Shown here one piece after another: positions 1 to 7,532 of a DNA stretch of 16,473 nucleotides. The position numbers and the translations under genes were made by a program. This DNA comes from a virus. The stretch is from the UHGV virus genome UHGV-0341991; one strand, 5' to 3'. Position 1 is the first letter of the stretch. Each line of letters starts with the position of its first letter. The notes beneath the pieces are model-generated. The model worked only from the letters and a program-made list of their open reading frames with translations, was not told the DNA's origin and did not search any database.

Positions 1-1
1 A

Positions 2-55
2 ATCCCCATACGCGGGGCAATTTCAGGGGTCAGCAGTGCTCTCACGGTCACCTCA
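2..55. repeat. Direct repeat copy 1 (54 bp); 53/54 identical to 436..489; may extend left of the window
   Basis: Read directly: atccccatacgcggggcaatttcaggggtcagCagtgctctcacggtcacctca here versus the same with T at the capitalised position at 436..489. Sequence 3' of it (56..124) is a degenerate in-frame match to the C-terminal codons of the KilA-N gene (..FNIVC* vs ..LDTVH*). Confidence 0.85.
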
Positions 56-134
56 GCAAACGATATTGAATGCATACAGAGAAAAAAACTCAGTCATCAC
101 GCAGTAAACTCCTTCACCAGTATTTCAAACTGGC

Positions 135-430
135 TGTTCAGGCCCGGTTCAGAGCTGATGCCCCTGTTTATGCAGGGGCGTGTCCTGCTGGAGCCTGAGC
201 CGGAACGTTATTCATCTTTCGCCAGCGGTGCCGTTCCGGCGGCACGCCACCAGCACGACGGATCACTGCCTCATTGCGGAACACGGCCCGAACGGCAGGA
301 TCATCCGCCAGCGGTTGTGATGCCGCCGGAACGGCACCGCTGGCGAAAGATGAATAACGTTCCGGCTCAGGCTCCAGCAGAACACGCCCCTGCATAAACA
401 GGGGCATCAGCTCTGAACCTGGCCTGAACA
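135..430. repeat. Large near-perfect inverted repeat: arms 135..244 and 321..430 (110 bp each, 2 mismatches), 76-bp spacer
   Basis: The reverse complement of 321..430 equals 135..244 except at positions 145 and 185. The two ORF-track entries 158..397(+) and 168..485(-) share the peptide MPLFMQGRVLLEPEPERYSSFASGAVPA, as expected for mirror-image artefacts of a palindrome. Confidence 0.9.
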
Positions 431-435
431 ATACG

Positions 436-489
436 ATCCCCATACGCGGGGCAATTTCAGGGGTCAGTAGTGCTCTCACGGTCACCTCA
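436..489. repeat. Direct repeat copy 2 (54 bp), forming the 3' flank and stop codon of the KilA-N gene
   Basis: 53/54 identity with 2..55; ends exactly at the TGA (revcomp of 487..489) of the 487..1296 CDS. Confidence 0.85.
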
Positions 490-1296
490 ATGAACGGTAT
501 CGAGCAGCTTTAACAGCTCAGGGAACCGGGATTCGAAGAAATGCGGCTGCGTCTCGCGCGGATTTGCAGGACTGGTGATGTTCTTGCCGAACATGCAGCC
601 TTTCGCCGTCAGCGACCAGAATTTTTTGATGTTGTTAATCGCGGTACGGCTGTATCGTTCGCGTTGTTCAACGATCCCCAGCTTCACCATCTGGTGATAT
701 GCCTGATTAGCCGTCAGGCGGATACCATACTGCTTCAGCAGTGCACTCAGCGACAGCGTGGGGCGACTTGAGCCATCAGGCGCGTCAGCAGGAGCATCAA
801 TGGCATAGCGCGGTGCCAGATTCGGTAAGCCAACAGCCTCCTGAAGCTTCTGACAGGCTCCAAGCACTGATGAGTTAGACAGATTTAATTCCCGGCGCAT
901 AAAGTCCAGCAGGATCACGCCAGCCTGCATCTTGTCAGCAGCCTGTCCGGATAATTTTTCCGGTGCGCTGGTTACCATGTCGAAAGTACGGATCACCTTC
1001 AGATGGAATGACGGGCTGATCCACATTGCATAGGCATACACCAGTTCTTTGCAGACATACGTCCCCTGGTTATTTCCGCCATTAATGACGCTAACTGGTT
1101 GATTTTGTTCCAGAGGCGGAATTCCACCCTCGGTGAAAAGTTGTTCAATCAATTCACAGGTTTGCTTATTGGAGAGCCAGTATTTCGGGCGGTTTTTTTG
1201 TTCTCCCCCGGCAGCCCTGTGCAGATCGTTCAGGCTGTAACGCCCATAAGCATCACGACGAACTTCAATACCATCAATGACCATCAGATTATTCAT
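487..1296 (-). CDS. Phage antirepressor-like protein, N-terminal KilA-N domain with ANT/KilA-C-like C-terminus
   Basis: N-terminal IDGIEVRRDAYGRYSLNDLHRAAGG..RPKYWL matches the KilA-N DNA-binding pattern from memory. Start set at ATG 1296 (MNNLMVIDG) because AGGAGA lies about 9 nt upstream; the track ORF extends to 1329 in frame. Confidence 0.7.
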   Translation of the reverse strand: MNNLMVIDGIEVRRDAYGRYSLNDLHRAAGGEQKNRPKYWLSNKQTCELIEQLFTEGGIPPLEQNQPVSVINGGNNQGTYVCKELVYAYAMWISPSFHLKVIRTFDMVTSAPEKLSGQAADKMQAGVILLDFMRRELNLSNSSVLGACQKLQEAVGLPNLAPRYAIDAPADAPDGSSRPTLSLSALLKQYGIRLTANQAYHQMVKLGIVEQRERYSRTAINNIKKFWSLTAKGCMFGKNITSPANPRETQPHFFESRFPELLKLLDTVH

Positions 1297-1315
1297 ACTT
1301 CGTTTCTCCTCTTGA

Positions 1316-1705
1316 TCAGGCGGCTGCACCCGCCGTTTTCTCGTACTTACTGATGGTGATCTCGACCTTCCCTTTCGGGATAACCGGTCCCCACTCCACC
1401 AGCATTCTTTTCACCTGTCTGTCGTCTTCCCACACACCCGCGTGGGTCAACGCGTCAAACAGCGCCTTGTTATAGTTGTCCAGATCGCGGATCCGGTTAT
1501 CCGGAGGAAACAACACGATCTCCACTGCAGCAGGTGCCGACGTTGGTTTTGGCAGACGACGTAACTGCTCAACTATTGCTGCGCACGCCGCGCTCTGAAA
1601 TTTTCGCCCCGCCGCGCTTATCAGGCTCTTACCAGCAAATGCCCCTTTGTTGGGGTGTCGCCAGTACGTGTTCACGCTGGGCGGGAAAGGCAGGATCAGC
1701 TTCAT
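1316..1705 (-). CDS. rusA: RusA-family Holliday junction resolvase (crossover junction endodeoxyribonuclease)
   Basis: MKLILPFPPSVNTYW.. and ..RDLDNYNKALFDALTHAGVWEDDRQV match the conserved RusA motifs (LP-PPS-N-Y; DLDN; DD-QV). Start overlaps the upstream stop (ATGA at 1702..1705). Confidence 0.85.
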   Translation of the reverse strand: MKLILPFPPSVNTYWRHPNKGAFAGKSLISAAGRKFQSAACAAIVEQLRRLPKPTSAPAAVEIVLFPPDNRIRDLDNYNKALFDALTHAGVWEDDRQVKRMLVEWGPVIPKGKVEITISKYEKTAGAAA

Positions 1706-2028
1706 ACTTTCAGGCCTCTCTCATGTAACCAGTGGGTTGCACGCAGCCTGGCGTTTTCCTCACCGGCAAGCAGTGAGCGGATAATCCCGACCGCCTCGCT
1801 GTCGTCGTCCTTCACCGCGGTATGAAGAGTGATACCCCGGGCCACGCCACGCTTTATCGTGATGACGCCTTTTTTCTCCAGTGCGCGAAGATGTTCCACC
1901 GCTGCATTCACTGAACGGTATCCCAGCATGGTTGCCACCTCCTGATTGGTTGGCGGGAAGCCACGTTCTTTCTGGTAAGAAATCAGCATATCCAGCACCT
2001 GCTGCTGGCATTGAGTTAACGTCGTCAT
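1702..2028 (-). CDS. LexA N-terminal (winged-helix DNA-binding) domain protein lacking the S24 peptidase domain
   Basis: QQQVLDMLISYQKERGFPPTNQEVATMLGYRSVNAAVEHLRALEKKGVITI parallels the LexA N-terminus ([46 protein letters not shown]). Only 108 aa, so no catalytic domain. ATGA overlaps at both ends. Confidence 0.65.
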   Translation of the reverse strand: MTTLTQCQQQVLDMLISYQKERGFPPTNQEVATMLGYRSVNAAVEHLRALEKKGVITIKRGVARGITLHTAVKDDDSEAVGIIRSLLAGEENARLRATHWLHERGLKV

Positions 2029-2678
2029 GCCGCCATCTCCCTGACCAGTTTTTCCGCCTGCTGGCGAACCTGCGCCAGAAACGCCTCACCACATGCCTCA
2101 AGTTCATCACGCCCGATGTAGCTGATTGCCGGTCCCTTCCAGGTCTTGTCGAAAACAGCAATAGCACCAGCGAAGAAAGCGCCTGTCGGCACCTGCTTCT
2201 CGTCCTTCGGTATAAACCAGGCAGGCAGTTCAAAACCAATACGCCCGCGAATAAAAGCAATATGATCTGCATCTTCCGGCCACCACACTTCGCTGGTGGC
2301 CGCTTTGATCAGGAAAACATAGCGCCCGCCCTTATCACGCATGACACTGGCATGTTTCATGATGTAACGCATGCCGGTGATGTATTGCCCCTCATGCTGA
2401 CTGGCGCGGCTGTATGGGGGATTACCAAAGGCAGCACCTTTAAGCTCCGCAAGACGTTCTGACCAGTCATGCGCCAGCGCGTTATCTTCCGCCGTGTAAT
2501 ACGCGGCACATTTGGCGTTATCACCGTCAGTAAACAGATCCAGAACAAACGGGCCAAACAGGGTGTTAATTCCCCAGAAAATGTTGTCCGGCGTGCGCCA
2601 CTGATCGCCCACTTCCTTCAGTTCATGGGCTGGTTTGTTCCGCAGTTCCACCAGCGCCTGGCAATATTTATTACTCAT
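2025..2678 (-). CDS. Phage Dam-like DNA N6-adenine methyltransferase (orphan MTase)
   Basis: FGNPPYS is the (D/N)PP(Y/F) catalytic motif, and the overall pattern fits the phage Dam family. Start chosen at ATG 2678 (MSNKYCQAL), overlapping the upstream TAA as TAATG; an in-frame alternative start exists at 2711. Confidence 0.8.
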   Translation of the reverse strand: MSNKYCQALVELRNKPAHELKEVGDQWRTPDNIFWGINTLFGPFVLDLFTDGDNAKCAAYYTAEDNALAHDWSERLAELKGAAFGNPPYSRASQHEGQYITGMRYIMKHASVMRDKGGRYVFLIKAATSEVWWPEDADHIAFIRGRIGFELPAWFIPKDEKQVPTGAFFAGAIAVFDKTWKGPAISYIGRDELEACGEAFLAQVRQQAEKLVREMAA

Positions 2679-3172
2679 TAAGCCCCCACGTAATTCCCTG
2701 ACAGATACCACTCTTCACCCGATGCAGCGCGCTTGCTGCTTTTCCGTAAGCACCGCTCACGACGCGCCAGAAAATTGTTTCGTTCTGGCTGGGAGTGGCT
2801 TTCACGGAATGCCGCCATCCACACGGTTGCAGCACGACGGTATAAGCCCCTGGACTCCAGTTCTTCAGCCTGGCGGGTCAGGCACAAAATCACCCGTGGA
2901 TCGTTAGTGCCGACATAGAAATTGCGCACAGGTCTGGTTTCTCGAACTGGTTGTGGTTCCGGTTCCTGCGCTCTCTCAGTCAGGCGCGGGAAATGTCTGC
3001 GTGTATCTCCTTCACAACGGTGAGCCACACGCCCACTCTGACGTAACTTGCTTGCTGACTGCAGAACGCGCTGCCGTGAGTAACCTGCAAAAGCATCCGC
3101 AATGTCTCCGGAAGTACACCCCGGATGGGCTTCAATGAATTTCTGAACTTCATTCAAAAGACTCATGATCAC
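2678..3172 (-). CDS. PerC/ANR-family-like transcriptional regulator (yfdN-like, 164 aa)
   Basis: C-terminal AEELESRGLYRRAATVWMAAF..RRERC resembles the PerC/ANR motif (LE-RGLWRRAA-RW...C), recalled from memory. The 164-aa length equals that recalled for K-12 YfdN. Start is GTG 3172 or ATG 3166; overlaps the upstream TGA. Confidence 0.5.
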   Translation of the reverse strand: MIMSLLNEVQKFIEAHPGCTSGDIADAFAGYSRQRVLQSASKLRQSGRVAHRCEGDTRRHFPRLTERAQEPEPQPVRETRPVRNFYVGTNDPRVILCLTRQAEELESRGLYRRAATVWMAAFRESHSQPERNNFLARRERCLRKSSKRAASGEEWYLSGNYVGA

Positions 3173-3987
3173 CCCCTGAATCCTGCCGGGATCTGGCTGT
3201 AGTCCACGTTGTCGTAACTGGCTTTGAAGTACGGGTCCTCGCGTCTGGCTGCAGATACCGCAGGAACTTCCCAGGATTCTTCGAAATGACGATCCGGACC
3301 AAAGAACGTAACAGCCTGTTTCACAAATTGTGTGCCGCTGTTACCCATCGCAGATACCCAGCCCGCGTAGCGTTTCACACCTTCCAGCATGGTTTCGGGG
3401 TTTACCCCCTCATTCAAACGGGCTTTCCAGGCTTTGAAGGCTGCAGATTTTGAATTGCCACCAGCACGTTTGGGATATACCAGCCATGCCTGCTCAAACT
3501 CCGGAGAGTATTCCGGTCGGTTTGAACGAACTCGCACGGACTCATCAACTGATGCACCAACAGCTATTGGTTCATTGACTGGTTCTTTGACTGGTTCAAA
3601 AGAGTGACTGGTTCTGGGTGAATCTCCTGCACTACCCCCTGGTGCAACTCCTGCACTACCTGGTGAATTTGCTGCACCAGATAGTGAATTATTTGCACTA
3701 CCCCCTAGTGAATCTCCTGCACCATCCAGATGAAGGAGATAGATATTACTTGAGTTACCTTTTTCACCTTTCCGGGTGACTTTTTTTACCAGCCCGGACT
3801 CACAAAGGGCCGCAATATGATTCATCACAGAACGTTTGCTAATCTCGCACTGGTCAGCAATATGCTGGTAGCTGGGCCAGCACTCCCCCTGATCGCTGGC
3901 ATTATCAGCCAGCTTGATCAGAACCAGTTTTCGCAATGGATTACCCACTCGAATTTTCATCGCTTTAACCATCAGCTCCATACTCAT
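3169..3987 (-). CDS. Replication initiation protein: N-terminal HTH, Gly/Ser/Ala-rich linker encoded by iterons, C-terminal DnaT-like domain (yfdO-like, intact)
   Basis: N-terminal KLVLIKLADNASDQGECWPSYQHIADQCEISKRSVMNHIAALCESGLV is an HTH of the phage replication-protein type. C-terminal YPKRAGGNSKSAAFKAWKARL..GTQFVKQAVTFF resembles the DnaT-like ssDNA-binding domain. Tandem DNA repeats lie inside the gene. Confidence 0.75.
   Translation of the reverse strand: MSMELMVKAMKIRVGNPLRKLVLIKLADNASDQGECWPSYQHIADQCEISKRSVMNHIAALCESGLVKKVTRKGEKGNSSNIYLLHLDGAGDSLGGSANNSLSGAANSPGSAGVAPGGSAGDSPRTSHSFEPVKEPVNEPIAVGASVDESVRVRSNRPEYSPEFEQAWLVYPKRAGGNSKSAAFKAWKARLNEGVNPETMLEGVKRYAGWVSAMGNSGTQFVKQAVTFFGPDRHFEESWEVPAVSAARREDPYFKASYDNVDYSQIPAGFRG
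3575..3730. repeat. Iteron-like tandem repeats inside the initiator gene: 3 copies of (t/g)tgactggttc at 3575..3614 and 5 copies of a 21-24 bp unit GTGAAT..TGCAC.A.CCCCT at 3618..3730; candidate origin
   Basis: Read directly; unit starts at 3618, 3642, 3663, 3684 and 3708. A moderately AT-rich stretch follows at 3731..3790. Lambda's origin has the same layout (iterons inside the O gene). Confidence 0.6.
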
Positions 3988-4208
3988 GCAGCACCTCCGA
4001 GATGCTTCATGTTTTTTCCGGAGCGAAAGGCTATAAGCGGCATACTGACGCGGTAACTACGGCCCAGCGGTTCACAAATCACCTTCTGACATTCACGGTC
4101 AACCAGGCTAACACGTAGAACATGCCCTGCAGGTGTGGTGTACCACTGACCCGGACGAGGACAACGGAAAGTCTGATTGGTAAACCGTTTGAAAATATTC
4201 CGGATCAT
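3984..4208 (-). CDS. Small basic hypothetical protein (74 aa)
   Basis: ORF with ATGA overlaps at both ends (3984..3987 and 4205..4208). No recognisable motif; Arg-rich and Asp-poor, so coding status is uncertain. Confidence 0.4.
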   Translation of the reverse strand: MIRNIFKRFTNQTFRCPRPGQWYTTPAGHVLRVSLVDRECQKVICEPLGRSYRVSMPLIAFRSGKNMKHLGGAA

Positions 4209-4750
4209 TTGCGCCCCCTTACCTCTGAAGGGTTCAGCGACAAATTTATGAGGCAGGCCAGTGCCGAAGCATCATTAATATAGTCATACAAGCTAACAGC
4301 CAGCGGAGATTCGGCTTTTGCCAACATAGGATAAAGCTGCTGCAGCCAGACCTGATGAATTGATGAAATGTAGGAATAGAGAACGCTGGCGTTATGTGCA
4401 ACGTCGCTCAGTACAGAGGGATTTGAAAGCTGTTTCTCCATCTGGTTAAAGGCATTGATGTATGCCTCTTTGAACTGGGCAGCACGTTTACCCGTGAAAC
4501 CCATAGCAAGAAACGCAAAGCCGTCGCGGGTTATTTGATAGCAAGGTAGTTTGCGGCCTGTGCAATCGGTGTAATCACTCGCCGAAAAATTGCGGGAAGT
4601 GAATGATGCAGAGCATTCAAGCGTGCGGATCTTTTTCAGTACATCGTCATGACGTTTGGAGAAGAAGTTGGCAACAGCCAGGGATGAAGTAACAGCCTGA
4701 CCATCAACGATGGCAATTTCAGGTTGAGTGAGGGTTGGGATCGTAGCCAT
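4205..4750 (-). CDS. Rha-family phage regulatory protein (181-aa form; the in-frame open frame continues upstream to 5356)
   Basis: MATIPTLTQPEIAIVDGQAVTSSLAVANFFSKRHDDVLKKIRTLE is the typical N-terminus of Rha-family proteins. ATG at 4750 is preceded by AAAGAGG. The 202 upstream codons (4751..5356) have no stop but only about 1% Asp, and contain a terminator-like hairpin. Confidence 0.6.
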   Translation of the reverse strand: MATIPTLTQPEIAIVDGQAVTSSLAVANFFSKRHDDVLKKIRTLECSASFTSRNFSASDYTDCTGRKLPCYQITRDGFAFLAMGFTGKRAAQFKEAYINAFNQMEKQLSNPSVLSDVAHNASVLYSYISSIHQVWLQQLYPMLAKAESPLAVSLYDYINDASALACLINLSLNPSEVRGRK

Positions 4751-4916
4751 GATGGCAGCCTCTTTGGTGATTTTTAATAACTCACCACCAAGGCTTTCCA
4801 CGACCTTATTGGTGGTGAGACGTACAGGGGTGGAAATACCGGTCACCAAAGAACCCGGCCCAACCGAAGTTGGCCCTGCACGCCCCACCATAATTTGGGC
4901 GTAATGCTGCTCATTA

Positions 4917-4941
4917 CACAAAAAAACCGCAAGAGCGCGGT
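4917..4941 (-). terminator. Candidate intrinsic terminator or attenuator inside the open frame upstream of Rha
   Basis: Minus strand reads aaccgc-gctctt-gcggtt followed by a 5-7 U tract (stem 4924..4929 with 4936..4941). The loop contains CGCTCTT. Confidence 0.35.
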
Positions 4942-5352
4942 TGTGCGCTTTGGTGAATTCCGAGTTTCCACGCCCGGCACCCGCTTTATAAGGTGCCTGA
5001 ACAGTGTAACGTCCCGGAATGGCAGAATCAATGTGCTGGTGGTCCTTCACACTCAACAAAATCACGCCTGAATTTCCACAAAGGACTAAAGCACTCATGC
5101 GGGTAGTCTTTGCGAAGATAGATAACGCGCTGTGTTTCTGGCTCCCAACGAATAACATGGACATAAAGCCCTCTTCCGTCACGAAACCAGCGGTTAAGTT
5201 CCTGCACAACTCGCCCCCCACAGTCAGGTAAAGTTCTCTGTGGTTACTTACAGCCAAGTGATTTGGTAATCTGCATTCATGCCGTAACAACAGGTGTTCA
5301 GCGACACTGACCACCAGCTGTTGCGACAAACGGTTATTTGCCGTTAAACTGT

Positions 5353-5904
5353 TCATGCGTTAGTTTCTCCACAGACACAAAACGCCACGACGCCCGGAGC
5401 TGCACACTCGCGGGCGTCACTCTTTTCTGGAGCGCAGAAGATTTTGTAGACCAGTGCTGCATGCTCCTGGAGCTTCGAAATTGACAGATACAACTCATCA
5501 TTAATTGCTGTCTGCTCGTGTGGCTCCACGACCCCATCTTCGATTGCCGAACGAATCTGCTTTGAGTAATTCCCGATCTGTTCGATGACTTCCAGCAGGC
5601 GCTGGTTTATATCGGCGTTCTCTACTTCCTCAATTTCAGGAAGCGATACGAACACCCCACCAGCAGACTGTGCGACAGCATCCGCAATGTAGTGAGTGCC
5701 AGCCGCGCGCTGTAAAACCATTGCCCATCCCAGCGGGAAAATCTGATCGCCATCTGCACGAAGGCGGTTGAATAAAGCGTTCTCTGTTACATCCAGCCAG
5801 TCAGCAGCTTCAGCGTAACCCCCAGGCAATGCCGCGATAGTTTTTCTGACAGCTTTCACGTACCACTCAGGTTGTTTTTCCACTTTCCAATGATGCTTAC
5901 CCAC
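5353..5904 (-). CDS. CII-position phage regulatory protein (183 aa), function unassigned
   Basis: Acidic, protein-like composition. GTG start at 5904 preceded by AGGAGG with a 6-nt spacer; overlaps the cro stop by 8 nt. Sits immediately downstream of cro, where lambdoid phages place cII-like regulators. Family assignment is a guess. Confidence 0.6.
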   Translation of the reverse strand: MGKHHWKVEKQPEWYVKAVRKTIAALPGGYAEAADWLDVTENALFNRLRADGDQIFPLGWAMVLQRAAGTHYIADAVAQSAGGVFVSLPEIEEVENADINQRLLEVIEQIGNYSKQIRSAIEDGVVEPHEQTAINDELYLSISKLQEHAALVYKIFCAPEKSDARECAAPGVVAFCVCGETNA

Positions 5905-6157
5905 GGCTTACCTCCTGTTCCTGTGGTTTAAACCCATTCTGGTTTTGGCTAGATTGAAAACGTGCCGGATAAAGAATCTGCATTTCGCTGATTTCACCCT
6001 TAAAAAAATTGGCCAGACGTTCTGCAAGATCGATAGATGGAATTTGTTCCAGTCTTTCAATACGACTCAGCGTCGCTGGATTGACCTGAACGCCCGCAGC
6101 AACATGCTGCAAAGTAAATCCGTGCGCCTTACGCACATTCCGTAATGGTGATTGCAT
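5897..6157 (-). CDS. Cro-like HTH (XRE-family) repressor
   Basis: KAHGFTLQHVAAGVQVNPATLSRIERLEQIPSIDLAERLANFF is a helix-turn-helix. Divergent from the CI-like gene; GGAGG lies 5 nt before ATG 6157. Confidence 0.75.
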   Translation of the reverse strand: MQSPLRNVRKAHGFTLQHVAAGVQVNPATLSRIERLEQIPSIDLAERLANFFKGEISEMQILYPARFQSSQNQNGFKPQEQEVSRG

Positions 6158-6254
6158 ATAACCTCCACATATTGCGTGATGAGCATATTATTTCACGCAA
6201 ATATTTTGCGCAAGTTGATTTGCTTAACGCGCAATAAAGAAATGTAATAAACGC
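6158..6254. promoter_or_regulatory. Divergent cro/cI promoter-operator region
   Basis: Repeated TTGC(R)/(Y)GCAA half-sites: TTGCGTGA-N13-TCACGCAA at 6172..6200, palindrome TTGCGCAA at 6206..6213, TTGCT-N5-CGCAA at 6220..6234. Leftward promoter candidate for cro: -35 TTGCGC (revcomp of 6208..6213), 17-nt spacer, -10 TAATAT (revcomp of 6185..6190). The cI ATG at 6255 has no obvious SD. Confidence 0.6.
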
Positions 6255-6947
6255 ATGAACATAGGAAATCGAGTCAGACAACTTCGCCAGGCGAAGAACA
6301 TGAAAATCGCCGATCTCGCTGAAGCAATAGGAGTGGATGCGGCGAATATCTCGCGCCTCGAAACAGGTAAGCAGAAACAATTCACTGAACAAGCCCTGAG
6401 TAATATTGCCAGGAGCTTAGGTGTTGATATTGCTGATCTCTTTACCTCAGACCTCAAAAGTAATACTGTATGTAAAAACAGTATTAGTGAGGATGTTGCG
6501 CAGGTGAAGGATGTATTCCGTATTGAAATGCTGGATGTCAGTGCCAGTGCGGGAAATGGCCTTATCCAGGGCGGTGATGTCATTGATGTGATTCATGCCA
6601 TTGAATACAGAACTGATAATGCTGTATCGATGTTTGGTGGACGACCAGCAAATCACATTAAAGTTATCAACGTTCGTGGGGACAGTATGTGTCCAACCAT
6701 TGAGCCAGGAGATCTCATCTTCGTTGATATCAGTATCAATCAGTTTGATGGGGATGGTATATATGTATTTGGTTTTGATGATAAAATTTACGTCAAACGA
6801 CTGCAAATGATACCTGATAAACTGCTGGTAATTTCTGATAATCAGATTTACCGCGAATGGGGAATTACCAGCGAAAACGAACACCGGTTTATGGTCTTTG
6901 GAAAGGTCTTAATCAGTCAGTCACAAACCCTTAAGCGACACAATTAA
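6255..6947 (+). CDS. CI-type prophage repressor: XRE HTH plus S24 (LexA-like) autopeptidase domain
   Basis: N-terminal HTH (MKIADLAEAIGVDAANISRLETGKQ). C-terminal VRGDSMCPTIEPGDLIFVD carries the Ser nucleophile motif and YVKRLQ the Lys general base, so RecA-stimulated autocleavage is expected. Confidence 0.85.
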   Translation: MNIGNRVRQLRQAKNMKIADLAEAIGVDAANISRLETGKQKQFTEQALSNIARSLGVDIADLFTSDLKSNTVCKNSISEDVAQVKDVFRIEMLDVSASAGNGLIQGGDVIDVIHAIEYRTDNAVSMFGGRPANHIKVINVRGDSMCPTIEPGDLIFVDISINQFDGDGIYVFGFDDKIYVKRLQMIPDKLLVISDNQIYREWGITSENEHRFMVFGKVLISQSQTLKRHN

Positions 6948-6968
6948 CCCCCTACCTCAACATCAATT

Positions 6969-6989
6969 AGCCACCAGAAGGTGGCTTTT
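6969..6989 (+). terminator. Intrinsic terminator downstream of the repressor gene
   Basis: agccacc-agaa-ggtggct followed by tttcatt. Confidence 0.55.
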
Positions 6990-7003
6990 CATTACTCACG
7001 CTA

Positions 7004-7041
7004 TTGCATATCTCGCAACAAAACACTTGCACATTACGCAA
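7004..7041. promoter_or_regulatory. Two operator-like 15-bp sites (TTGCA-N5-CGCAA at 7004..7018 and 7027..7041), candidate operator of the rightward early operon
   Basis: Same half-site family as the cro/cI intergenic sites; the two sites are centred 23 bp apart, immediately after the cI terminator. Confidence 0.5.
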
Positions 7042-7486
7042 TTTCATTTTATCTTTCTTTCCAGACCAACAAACAAGGTCCTAACAAAATTTGGTTGTAA
7101 CACGGCGTATGGCACATGCGTCGTTAGCGGTCTGGGGACGTTAAAGGGGACAATCCACTCCTTGCTCGAGCAGACAAACCAGGTAGCCGGAATGTGCAAG
7201 TCAATGAGGATGCTGATAAGACGCCTAACCAGCGTGGCGATTCGGTTTGACGCCTGGGAAGAGACCAGGGTGCAACGATGAGGGCATTTATGGAACCGCG
7301 ACAAAGTGTGGTGCCGTAACTGGCTAAGTGCTCTCAGCGTTGTGGTGAATGCGCAGGCTGATGCGCGAAAGACATTGCAGCTATTGCGGAAAAGAGCTGT
7401 TCGGCGGGGCAATTAAACGCCCGTGAGAGTCTGAAATAACCGCAAGCCGGAGATCAGCACCGGTCACCACAACAGCCACTGCTTTG

Positions 7487-7532
7487 GCGGTACCAGTTTG
7501 TACACTTGCTTCCGGCTGGTACCGCTCTTTTT
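7487..7532 (+). terminator. Terminator-like hairpin in the leader of the rightward operon, overlapping a boxA-like CGCTCTTTTTACAA
   Basis: gcggtaccag (7487..7496) pairs with ctggtaccgc (7516..7525), followed by tcttttt. CGCTCTTTTTACAA at 7523..7536 resembles rrn/lambda boxA (GCTCTTTAACAA). Confidence 0.45.

What the first reader, a model, noticed from the sequence alone, without database searches (positions are those of the whole stretch)
3575..3790. Iteron array inside the replication-initiator gene: candidate phage origin
Three copies of tgactggttc and five 21-24 bp units (GTGAAT..TGCAC.A.CCCCT) are tandemly arranged inside the initiator gene, encoding its Gly/Ser/Ala/Pro-rich linker, with a more AT-rich stretch next to them. 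In lambda the origin lies inside the O gene as iterons bound by O itself.
Basis: partly seen in the sequence, partly recalled or inferred. Interest (0 to 1): 0.5.

Follow-up and report, generated by a model that had tools for sequence, protein, structure and literature searches.

The report
Phage replication origin inside initiator gene
The repeats are real and are very probably the phage's replication origin, built like lambda's (initiator-binding sites inside the initiator's own gene) but belonging to a different, unstudied initiator family found in Shiga-toxin and Shigella phages, and followed by a short DNA box kept letter-for-letter identical in relatives from Pseudomonas to Vibrio.

Summary
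Observation confirmed. The minus-strand gene 3169-3987 encodes a 272-aa HTH_36 winged-helix replication initiator, about 99% identical to those of phages SfV and mEp460 (the "Eru6" Stx-phage type).

Its disordered linker is encoded by five 15-bp dyad-symmetric units (GTGMA-N5-TKCAC, 3618-3722, spacing 24/21/21/24). These are followed by three GAACCAGTCA copies (3576-3614).

Evidence from 84 homologous loci:
- The units are selected as DNA, not as peptide. The half-sites fix otherwise rare codons, and the same 15-mer is read in two reading frames.
- The units fall into six sequence types that track the predicted recognition helix and wing.
- Unit number varies from 1 to 9 among near-identical prophages.
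- The GAACCAGTCA repeats are not specificity iterons. They belong to a 37-bp box that is invariant even at synonymous sites in 69 dereplicated homologs. The box is independent of iteron type, C-terminal domain family and partner helicase or loader genes.
- The box occupies the position of lambda's conserved AT-rich unwinding region.

Binding and origin activity are inferred, not shown. I rate it a new member of a known kind. What reads the box is unexplained.

The parts
3169..3987 (-). Replication initiator gene (272 aa). It is the only replication gene in the window.
   Evidence: ORF. Pfam HTH_36 44 bits (cut-off 25) and PHROG 270 'replication initiation protein' E=7e-88. 99.6% identical to SfV orf39 'replication protein' and 99% at DNA level to mEp460. 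No helicase or loader found in the window or in the complete mEp460 genome.
3733..3987 (-). [quoted passage not shown]
   Evidence: AlphaFold2 pLDDT 66-89 across this block, with helices 3-11, 17-28, 40-47, 51-63 and strands 67-73, 79-85. Foldseek returns only generic winged-helix hits, including DnaD N-terminal domain 2v79 and a plasmid Rep-DNA complex 5kbj. Residues 1-48 are near-invariant in 69 homologs; residues 49-74 are variable and track iteron type.
3708..3722 (.). Iteron 1 (gene order); gene strand GTGCAGGAGATTCAC.
3684..3698 (.). Iteron 2; gene strand GTGCAAATAATTCAC.
3663..3677 (.). Iteron 3; gene strand GTGCAGCAAATTCAC.
3642..3656 (.). Iteron 4; gene strand GTGCAGGAGTTGCAC (perfect GTGCA/TGCAC dyad).
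3618..3632 (.). Iteron 5, box-proximal; gene strand GTGCAGGAGATTCAC. It directly abuts the invariant box and sits 24 bp from iteron 4, as in nearly all homologs.
3576..3617 (.). Family-invariant box; gene strand CCAGAACCAGTCACTCTTTTGAACCAGTCAAAGAACCAGTCA. It holds three GAACCAGTCA repeats at 3605-3614, 3588-3597 and 3576-3585. Candidate unwinding or helicase-entry element.
   Evidence: Present with at most 6 mismatches in 31 nt in 83 of 84 homologs. Box codons use a single codon each in 69 dereplicated sequences, against a mean top-codon fraction of 0.56 in conserved N-terminal columns. Logo. Least stable duplex region on family average, z about +2. Single strands are unstructured.
3520..3723 (-). 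Codons 89-156: disordered linker whose DNA carries the iterons and the box.
   Evidence: pLDDT below 50 for aa 91-139 and 141-156. Length varies by whole units among near-identical proteins of 242 to 302 aa.
3172..3519 (-). Codons 157-272: C-terminal domain, the presumed recruitment domain for a DnaC/DnaB-type loader and helicase.
   Evidence: The PHROG C-terminal hits include families labelled replication protein, DnaD-like helicase loader and primosomal protein. In 26 of 31 loci with this C-terminal type the next genes are DnaC-like plus DnaB-like. At least 9 unrelated C-terminal families are fused to the same N-terminal module.
3723..3790 (.). Alternative candidate unwinding region.
   Evidence: GC 0.42. 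98th percentile of low duplex stability in the window. On family average it is a secondary instability peak, and holds the least stable 30-mer of the gene in 18 of 69 homologs.

Best explanation
The segment 3576-3722 is the phage's origin of theta replication, lying inside its own initiator gene.

Proposed mechanism, all steps inferred unless stated:
1. Dimers of the N-terminal winged-helix domain (aa 1-85) bind the five 15-bp iterons. Each iteron has GTGCA and TKCAC half-sites 10 bp apart centre to centre. The iterons are phased 21-24 bp apart, so the bound proteins would lie on one face of the helix and form an O-some-like nucleoprotein complex.
2. This complex stresses the adjacent invariant box (three GAACCAGTCA repeats). 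The box is the positional counterpart of lambda's conserved AT-rich region. It is proposed to melt and serve as the entry site for the helicase.
3. The C-terminal domain recruits a DnaC-type loader and DnaB helicase. This phage encodes neither, so the host's proteins would be used.

Shown here: the anatomy, DNA-level selection on the repeats, covariation with the protein, and the gene context. Inferred: binding, unwinding at the box, and host helicase recruitment.
For: Repeats are non-random and confined to the array.

Initiator identity and context:
- HTH_36 and PHROG 270 matches.
- Relatives carry DnaC-like plus DnaB-like genes, a lambda-P-like gene or a DnaB-like gene directly downstream.
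- The viable phage mEp460, with a 99% identical replication region, has no other replication gene.

DNA-level selection on iterons:
- In 163 type-A units the centre is degenerate (0.3-0.9 bit), while unselected half-site positions are nearly fixed (A at position 4 in 162/163; T at position 10 in 161/163).
- The Ala codon within half-sites is GCA in 98/99 cases, against 17% elsewhere in the same genes.
- The Ser codon is TCA in 58/58, against 10% elsewhere.
- 20 of 163 units sit in another reading frame, so the same 15-mer encodes SAGDSP or VVQEIHQ.

Architecture is conserved in 69 dereplicated homologs: 3-7 units, spacing 21-24 bp (rarely wider), last spacing 24 bp in nearly all, last unit abutting the box.

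Specificity covariation:
- Six half-site types (GTGCA, GGGCR, GTGAC, TAGGC, TGCCR, TAGCA) track residues 50-60 of the predicted recognition helix and the wing.
- Mean mutual information with iteron type is 0.66 bit for aa 49-74 and 0.11 bit for aa 1-48.

Other points:
- Copy number ranges from 1 to 9 units in near-identical proteins.
- The linker is disordered.
- The box is invariant at synonymous sites, ends exactly at the N/C module junction, and is the least stable duplex on family average.
- The lambda-O family shows the same plan: variable iterons plus a conserved right-hand box CACAAAAGAC..ACAAAAGA in lambda, P22, HK544, Pmp10, phiEt88 and g341c.

Published precedents: the lambda origin lies in the middle of O (PMC7466680); P22 and L gene 18 carry iterons (PMC8022706); the pSK41 RepA_N origin lies inside rep with a dispensable linker, and the pPR9 initiator with a PF13730 N-terminal domain replicates autonomously (PMC5703833).
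Against: - There is no experimental evidence of binding, unwinding or origin activity for this family. The Eru papers state that nothing is known about replication of these phages.
- The box is only 55-58% AT. In this window it ranks at the 83rd percentile of instability, below the other flank at 3725-3790 (98th percentile). The site of melting is therefore uncertain.
- Covariation between iteron and protein is confounded by physical linkage and shared ancestry, because both lie in one gene.
- No candidate reader of the box was identified.
- Some prophage variants have only 1-2 units. They may be defective, or they may show that few units suffice.
Confidence: 0.75

Rival explanations
1. The repeats are only coding repeats. 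Replication slippage created a flexible Gly/Ser/Ala/Pro linker and the DNA has no cis function.
For: The region encodes a disordered linker. Its length varies by whole units among close relatives, as slippage-prone coding repeats do.
Against: Conservation follows DNA logic, not peptide logic. Half-sites are fixed, including third codon positions (GCA 98/99 against 17% background; TCA 58/58 against 10%). The central 5 bp change the amino acids freely. The same 15-mer is used in two reading frames. The units show dyad symmetry and constant phasing across genera, and they covary with the recognition helix. Box codons are invariant at synonymous sites even in GC-rich Pseudomonas.
Confidence: 0.03
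2. The units are genuine initiator-binding sites, but they serve regulation rather than origin firing. Possible roles are autorepression by roadblock, copy control or handcuffing, or incompatibility. The true origin would lie elsewhere.
For: In iteron plasmids the same Rep-binding repeats also mediate control (general knowledge). No strong AT-rich tract adjoins the array in this window.
Against: No other copy of the motif exists in the 16.5-kb early region. The arrangement matches the experimentally defined in-gene origins of lambda, P22 and pSK41 (PMC7466680, PMC8022706, PMC5703833). The array always travels with the invariant box and the N-terminal domain as one module, whatever helicase or loader partner follows.
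Confidence: 0.1
3. This rival concerns the box only. The invariant 37-42 bp is not an unwinding element. It is either a conserved homology patch that promotes exchange of N- and C-terminal modules (a 'linker' sequence in the sense of modular phage evolution), or an element read in the mRNA.
For: Conservation stops exactly at the junction where at least 9 unrelated C-terminal families are joined to the same N-terminal module. The box is not strongly AT-rich in E. coli phages.
Against: Second-order selection for recombination is unlikely to hold 31 of 37 positions above 90% across phages of Pseudomonas, Vibrio, Aeromonas and enterics, while synonymous sites elsewhere are saturated. There is no RNA or DNA secondary structure beyond shuffled controls, no Rfam family and no promoter. 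Distant relatives keep the repeated AAyCAGTCA core while changing spacing and surrounding sequence, which points to a repeated binding motif. A functional box could also act as a recombination patch as a by-product.
Confidence: 0.12

Closest known systems
The lambda origin inside gene O (also P22 gene 18 and phage L gene 18)
   Same: The origin lies in the middle of the initiator gene. It has tandem dyad-symmetric iterons about two helical turns apart, bound by the N-terminal domain. The iteron set is lineage-specific and is followed, in the direction of transcription, by a box conserved across the family. The C-terminal domain is exchangeable and couples to the loader or helicase. Iteron number varies between relatives: 4 in lambda, 6 in Stx phages (PMC7466680).
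   Different: The protein is not homologous to lambda O: Pfam HTH_36, not Phage_rep_O, and BLASTP gives no significant match to lambda O or P22 gp18. The iterons are 15-bp 5-N5-5 sites rather than 18-19-bp sites. The conserved box consists of GAAyCAGTCA repeats (about 56% AT) instead of the A-rich CACAAAAGAC..ACAAAAGA tract. This phage has no P-like loader or helicase gene.
RepA_N plasmid initiators of Firmicutes (pSK41) and the chimeric pPR9 initiator
   Same: An N-terminal winged helix binds Rep boxes located centrally in its own gene. The origin-encoded central part is a dispensable linker. The C-terminal domain is host-specific and contacts the primosome (DnaG). In pPR9 the N-terminal domain plus origin module was replaced by a phage-like PF13730 (HTH_36) module, and the rep region replicates autonomously (PMC5703833). 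Foldseek lists DnaD N-terminal domain 2v79 and Rep-DNA complex 5kbj among the winged-helix hits.
   Different: Pfam RepA_N is not matched. The hosts are Gram-positive and the elements are plasmids, not phages. Nothing comparable to the invariant box is described in the review read here, and I did not examine the pPR9 sequence.
Iteron plasmids of Proteobacteria (RK2 TrfA, F RepE, R6K pi, pPS10 RepA)
   Same: They combine an iteron array with an adjacent unwinding element made of short direct repeats (13-mers). Rep proteins are reported to bind one strand of that element sequence-specifically. This comes from my own knowledge and was not checked here.
   Different: Their origins lie outside the rep gene. 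Their Rep proteins have two winged-helix domains (Rep_3 family), which are not matched here. DnaA boxes are usual in those origins; I saw none here by eye.
'Eru5' and 'Eru6' replication regions of Shiga-toxin phages (Llarena et al. 2021, 2022)
   Same: The window is the Eru6 type: a Rha/Ash gene followed by an HTH_36 gene. It is 97.8% identical in protein to the reference phage Stx2a_WGPS2 (PMC8951638). The Eru5 initiator (Stx2a_F403) carries type-B iterons plus the box.
   Different: Those papers classify gene content only. They report no iterons or origin and state that nothing is known about the replication proteins of Eru phages.

Membership tests
In-gene iteron origin of lambda architecture (functional class) | The repeats lie inside the initiator gene, between a DNA-binding N-terminal domain and a separate C-terminal domain. 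| tested here: met
   Winged helix at aa 1-85, repeats encoding aa 89-140, C-terminal helices at aa 162-214. PHROG N-terminal hits end at aa 138-141, and most C-terminal hits start at aa 135-157.
In-gene iteron origin of lambda architecture (functional class) | At least 3-4 tandem units with internal dyad symmetry, phased about two helical turns apart. | tested here: met
   Five units GTGMA-N5-TKCAC with spacing 24/21/21/24. The same plan is seen in 69 homologs.
In-gene iteron origin of lambda architecture (functional class) | Iteron sequence is specific to, and covaries with, the initiator's DNA-binding domain. | tested here: met
   Six iteron types track residues 50-60 and the wing. Mutual information is 0.66 bit against 0.11 bit for aa 1-48. 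Caveat: the two are physically linked and share ancestry.
In-gene iteron origin of lambda architecture (functional class) | An adjacent easily melted (AT-rich) region on the downstream side of the iterons. | tested here: inconclusive
   The box plus 50 bp is 56% AT and is the least stable region on family average, z about +2. In this window it reaches only the 83rd percentile, while the upstream flank 3725-3790 reaches the 98th.
In-gene iteron origin of lambda architecture (functional class) | The initiator binds the repeats, and the fragment supports autonomous replication. | not testable with these tools
   This needs EMSA or footprinting and a plasmid replication assay.
Lambda O protein family (Pfam Phage_rep_O) | Sequence homology of the initiator to lambda O or P22 gp18. 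| tested here: not met
   No Phage_rep_O hit at E up to 0.01. BLASTP best E is 0.02 to lambda O and 5.1 to P22 gp18, short spurious segments only.
HTH_36 (PF13730) winged-helix initiators | Pfam HTH_36 match above the gathering score. | tested here: met
   44.1 bits against a cut-off of 25, aa 17-67. All ten homologs scanned with Pfam also match.
RepA_N plasmid initiators | Pfam RepA_N (PF06970) domain. | tested here: not met
   Not among the Pfam hits. There is only a sub-threshold DnaD_N match (24.3 bits against a cut-off of 27) and generic winged-helix fold hits.
Initiator-only replication module (no phage helicase or loader) | No helicase, loader, primase or polymerase gene in the phage. 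| tested here: met
   None found in the window. None is annotated in the complete genome of mEp460, which has the same replication region. The prophage holding this window is itself not seen in full.

The most novel reading that the evidence does not exclude
The invariant box of GAAyCAGTCA repeats is a sequence-specific recognition element, not merely an easily melted tract. It would be read, as duplex or as one melted strand, either by the near-invariant first 48 residues of the initiator or by a host factor common to Gammaproteobacteria. In that case it would be a universal origin-opening or helicase-entry cassette. Phages of Pseudomonas, Vibrio, Aeromonas, Pasteurellaceae and enterics would combine it freely with different iteron specificities and with different loaders (DnaC/DnaB, lambda-P-like, unknown, or none).
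Probability: 0.35. Interest if true: 0.6.

Novelty: new member of a known kind. Interest (0 to 1): 0.45.

Why it matters
This initiator type drives replication of SfV-, ST64B- and mEp460-like phages and of the Eru5 and Eru6 Shiga-toxin phages, whose replication is described as unknown in the papers that classify them. Phage replication level influences toxin output.

The analysis gives a concrete, testable origin map: five iterons, a box, and predicted specificity residues. For example, N56 to R accompanies the change from GTGCA to GTGAC half-sites. It also identifies a large natural series of matched initiator and iteron specificities that could serve as orthogonal replicons.

The invariant box, together with the parallel conserved box seen here in lambda-type origins, bears on an old question: whether the 'AT-rich' side of phage origins is read sequence-specifically.

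Tried and rejected
- The viral-contig scan with the protein alignment returned only relatives at least 98% identical and was useless for comparison. The genome-contig scan supplied the diversity.
- Sequence search of solved structures gave only spurious low-complexity hits. NCBIfam gave nothing above cut-off.
- The Rfam scan gave only a spurious sub-threshold miRNA hit.
- No sigma-70-like promoter lies in 3100-4300. The single terminator-like hairpin (3764-3779, + strand) is within chance expectation.
- Single-strand folding of the box shows less structure than shuffled controls. The iteron array folds only marginally better than shuffles, z about -1.6 to -1.7, as expected from its dyads.
- The exact GAATCAGTCA inside the annotated P22 origin looked like a cross-family link. 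It is part of P22's fourth degenerate iteron and is absent from HK544 and four other lambda-O-type origins, so I dropped it as coincidence.
- By eye, the box contains no DnaA box or IHF consensus. I ran no formal scan.
- The C-terminal domain could not be identified. AlphaFold2 confidence there is 56-75, and Foldseek hits cover only the winged helix.
- Literature: searching papers for the box and peptide strings found only unrelated primers. The SfV genome paper (Allison 2002) is not held. The Weigel and Seitz replication-module review is cited by others but not held. An earlier description in subscription journals therefore cannot be excluded.
Full report
**1. Observation**

The window region 3000-4600 lies in a minus-strand ORF, 3169-3987, encoding 272 aa.
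- Tandem Repeats Finder reports a period-12 array at 3568-3598 and a period-24/21 array at 3618-3722.
- The repeat finder gives TGACTGGTTCT at 3576, 3588 and 3605, and the longer units.
- The degenerate unit GTGMANNNNNTKCAC occurs five times in the window, all in the array, against 0.10 expected; 0 of 200 shuffles reach five.
- Exact GAACCAGTCA occurs three times, only here.
- The repeats encode aa 89-140, a Gly/Ser/Ala/Pro-rich stretch that AlphaFold2 models as disordered (pLDDT below 50 for aa 91-156). The N-terminal winged helix (aa 1-85) is modelled confidently (pLDDT 66-89).
- Both flanks of the array are mildly AT-enriched, with GC 0.42.

**2. What the gene is**

The protein matches Pfam HTH_36 (44 bits, cut-off 25) and PHROG 270, 'replication initiation protein' (E=7e-88). 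Separate PHROG families cover the N-terminal part (ending at aa 138-141) and the C-terminal part (most starting at aa 135-157).

It is 99.6% identical to SfV orf39, 'replication protein', and about 99% at DNA level to mEp460 and Stx2c phages. It is 87.5% identical to ST64B sb42, 68% to Aeromonas phage AsXd-1 and 48% to Vibrio phages.

The window is a lambdoid early region read backwards:
- cI-like repressor, 6255-6947 (+)
- cro-like, 5897-6157 (-)
- cII-like, 5353-5904 (-)
- Rha/Ash, 4205-5356 (-)
- a 74-aa ORF
- the initiator
- PerC-like, Dam, LexA-like, RusA and KilA-N genes

This is the 'Eru6' type of Stx-phage replication region. Its reference phage Stx2a_WGPS2 is 97.8% identical in this protein. 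[quoted passage not shown]

No helicase, loader or primase gene is present in the window. None is annotated in the complete genome of the viable phage mEp460.

**3. Comparative sample**

A scan of one genome per species returned 80 loci with 39-78% identical proteins. They come from Pseudomonas, Enterobacter, Phytobacter, Erwinia, Xenorhabdus, Aeromonas, Shewanella, Marinomonas, Vibrionaceae and others. With three phage loci and the window, this gives 84 genes. After removing N-terminal blocks more than 90% identical in DNA, 69 remain.

**4. The 21-24-bp units behave as protein-binding DNA, not as coding repeats**

All 69 dereplicated loci show the same plan: 3-7 units (most often 4-5), start-to-start spacing of 21-24 bp with rare wider gaps, a final spacing of 24 bp in all but two, and the last unit abutting a conserved box.

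Each unit is a 15-bp core of two 5-bp half-sites in inverted orientation around a 5-bp spacer.

In 163 units of the window's type:
- The spacer is degenerate (0.3-0.9 bit).
- The unselected half-site positions are almost fixed (A at position 4 in 162/163; T at position 10 in 161/163).
- Inside half-sites the Ala codon is GCA in 98/99 cases, against 17% GCA among Ala codons elsewhere in the same genes.
- The Ser codon is TCA in 58/58, against 10% elsewhere.
- Twenty of the 163 units lie in a different reading frame. The same DNA 15-mer then encodes SAGDSP in one place and VVQEIHQ in another place of the same array (for example L093).

Selection therefore acts on the DNA motif.

Near-identical E. 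coli and Shigella proteins differ only by whole units. Lengths of 242, 250, 272, 286, 294 and 302 aa correspond to 1, 2, 5, 7, 8 and 9 units. The peptide is thus a tolerant linker.

**5. Specificity covariation**

Six half-site types occur: GTGCA/TKCAC, GGGCR/..GCCC, GTGAC/GTCAC, TAGGC/GCCTA, TGCCR/TGGCA and TAGCA.

Residues 1-48 of the protein are almost invariant across all types. Residues 50-60, in the predicted recognition helix (aa 51-63), and the wing differ by type:
- S[KR]RSV[MI]NHI with GTGCA
- SKRSxMRHI with GTGAC
- xRSTVKxHxR plus NGELNQSN with GGGCR
- DRSTVRKHIK with TAGGC
- SKSAVRNHI with TGCCR

Mean mutual information with iteron type is 0.66 bit for aa 49-74 and 0.11 bit for aa 1-48.

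This is the pattern expected of an initiator and its cognate iterons. The caveat is that both lie in one gene and share ancestry.

**6. The TGACTGGTTC copies belong to an invariant box**

Aligning on the sequence after the last unit shows a 37-bp element, CCAGAAyCAGTCACTCTyyTGAAyCAGTCAw.GAACC. It is present with at most 6 mismatches in 31 nt in 83 of 84 loci, in the same frame in all but two.

The codons P-R-T-S-H-S-x-E use a single codon each (CCC, AGA, ACC, AGT, CAC, TCT, GAA) in all 69 sequences, including GC-rich Pseudomonas. By contrast, invariant residues in the N-terminal domain use all their synonymous codons. The mean top-codon fraction is 0.93 in the box and 0.56 in 42 conserved N-terminal columns. 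Even the Vibrio phage with a 48% identical protein is nearly identical in DNA here.

The box is independent of three things:
- iteron type;
- the C-terminal domain, of which at least nine unrelated families are fused just after the box;
- the partner genes downstream. These are DnaC-like plus DnaB-like in 26 of 31 loci with the window's C-terminal type, lambda-P-like in 10 of 16 loci of another type, and an unknown 268-aa gene in 21 of 21 Pseudomonas-type loci.

More distant relatives keep only the repeated core AAyCAGTCA with altered spacing (Morganella IME1369_02, mEp044, Aggregatibacter S1249).

All 15 plasmid-database records matching the box are isolated hits. Where a gene is annotated under the match it is always a helix-turn-helix protein gene, and several of the records are 33-54 kb.

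The box has no excess single-strand structure, no promoter and no Rfam match. On family average it is the least stable duplex stretch of the gene (z about +2), and it holds the least stable 30-mer in 28 of 69 genes. In this particular window that upstream stretch is the less stable of the two.

**7. Comparison with lambda-type origins**

In lambda the origin (iterons plus an AT-rich tract) lies in the middle of gene O. Stx phages have six iterons instead of four. The two iterons next to the AT-rich tract suffice in vitro, and O also binds single-stranded DNA (PMC7466680). P22 gene 18 and phage L gene 18 carry their own iterons (PMC8022706).

I compared lambda, P22, HK544, Pasteurella Pmp10, Erwinia phiEt88 and g341c. 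Their iterons differ, but a right-hand box CACAAAAGAC..ACAAAAGA is shared. That is the same plan as here, with different sequences and an unrelated protein.

A second precedent is the RepA_N family. pSK41 Rep binds boxes centrally within its own gene. The origin-encoded part is a dispensable linker, and the C-terminal domain contacts DnaG. In pPR9 the N-terminal domain plus origin module was replaced by a phage-like PF13730 module that replicates autonomously (PMC5703833).

**8. Mechanism proposed**

Dimers of the winged helix occupy the five phased iterons and build an O-some-like complex. The adjacent box melts and is the helicase entry site, possibly recognised sequence-specifically. The C-terminal domain brings in a DnaC/DnaB-type loader and helicase, supplied by the host in this phage.

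Shown: anatomy, DNA-level selection, covariation and gene context. Inferred: binding, the site of melting and the host partners.

**9. Verdict**

The 10-mer repeats are part of a family-invariant box rather than specificity iterons, and that box is the better analogue of lambda's AT-rich region.

The kind of element is well known. I rate it a new member of a known kind with moderate interest. The open point is what reads the invariant box.

Noticed in passing
window 1-16473: The window is a lambdoid prophage early region in reverse orientation. It holds a cI-like repressor (6255-6947, +), cro-like (5897-6157, -), cII-like (5353-5904, -), Rha/Ash regulator (4205-5356, -), then the initiator, PerC-like (2678-3172), Dam methylase (2025-2711), a LexA-DNA-binding-domain protein (1702-2028), RusA (1316-1705) and KilA-N (487-1329). 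The leftward operon runs up to an excisionase (12768-13076). It matches the 'Eru6' Stx-phage type.
   Followed up: partly
window 13337-14325 (-): A SocA/Panacea-domain antitoxin-like gene (13753-14325) is followed by a 139-aa gene of unknown function (13337-13756) that overlaps it by 4 bases. This is a possible toxin-antitoxin or defence pair beyond the excisionase.
   Followed up: no
window 3764-3779 (+), T-run to 3789: A terminator-like hairpin (TCACCTTTCCGGGTGA followed by CTTTTTTTAC) lies on the strand antisense to the initiator gene, inside the wing-coding AT-rich stretch. The count is within chance expectation for the region.
   Followed up: no
window 6575-6604: A period-9 tandem repeat (TGATGTCAT, 3.3 copies, 76% matches) lies inside the cI-like repressor gene.
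   Followed up: no
proteins P0001, P0003, P0021, P0028, P0042, P0018 (relatives of window 3169-3987): Near-identical E. coli and Shigella initiators differ only in repeat number: 1, 2, 5, 7, 8 or 9 iteron units. One variant has four instead of three EPV/GAACCAGTCA repeats. Whether the 1-2-unit versions sit in defective prophages is unknown.
   Followed up: partly
L089-L116 (Pseudomonas loci), about 3893-4699 in L089: All 21 initiators with the Pseudomonas-type C-terminal domain are followed by a conserved 268-aa gene with no Pfam match. It may be an uncharacterised helicase-loader-like partner.
   Followed up: no
L168 (P22) 2841-2985; L169 (lambda) 1120-1160; L170-L173: Lambda-O-type origins from E. 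coli, Salmonella, Erwinia and Pasteurella phages share a nearly identical right-hand box (CACAAAAGAC..ACAAAAGA) despite different iterons. P22's fourth iteron happens to contain GAATCAGTCA.
   Followed up: partly
L118 (Pseudomonas bharatica) 3001-3402: This is the only homolog without the box. The gene is truncated to 133 aa, probably a decayed prophage copy.
   Followed up: no
window 3633-3641 and 3699-3707: A G5/C5 tract (gene strand A-GGGGG-T) fills the 24-bp spacings. It is conserved before the last iteron in about 77% of homologs. It may be a bending or spacing element.
   Followed up: no
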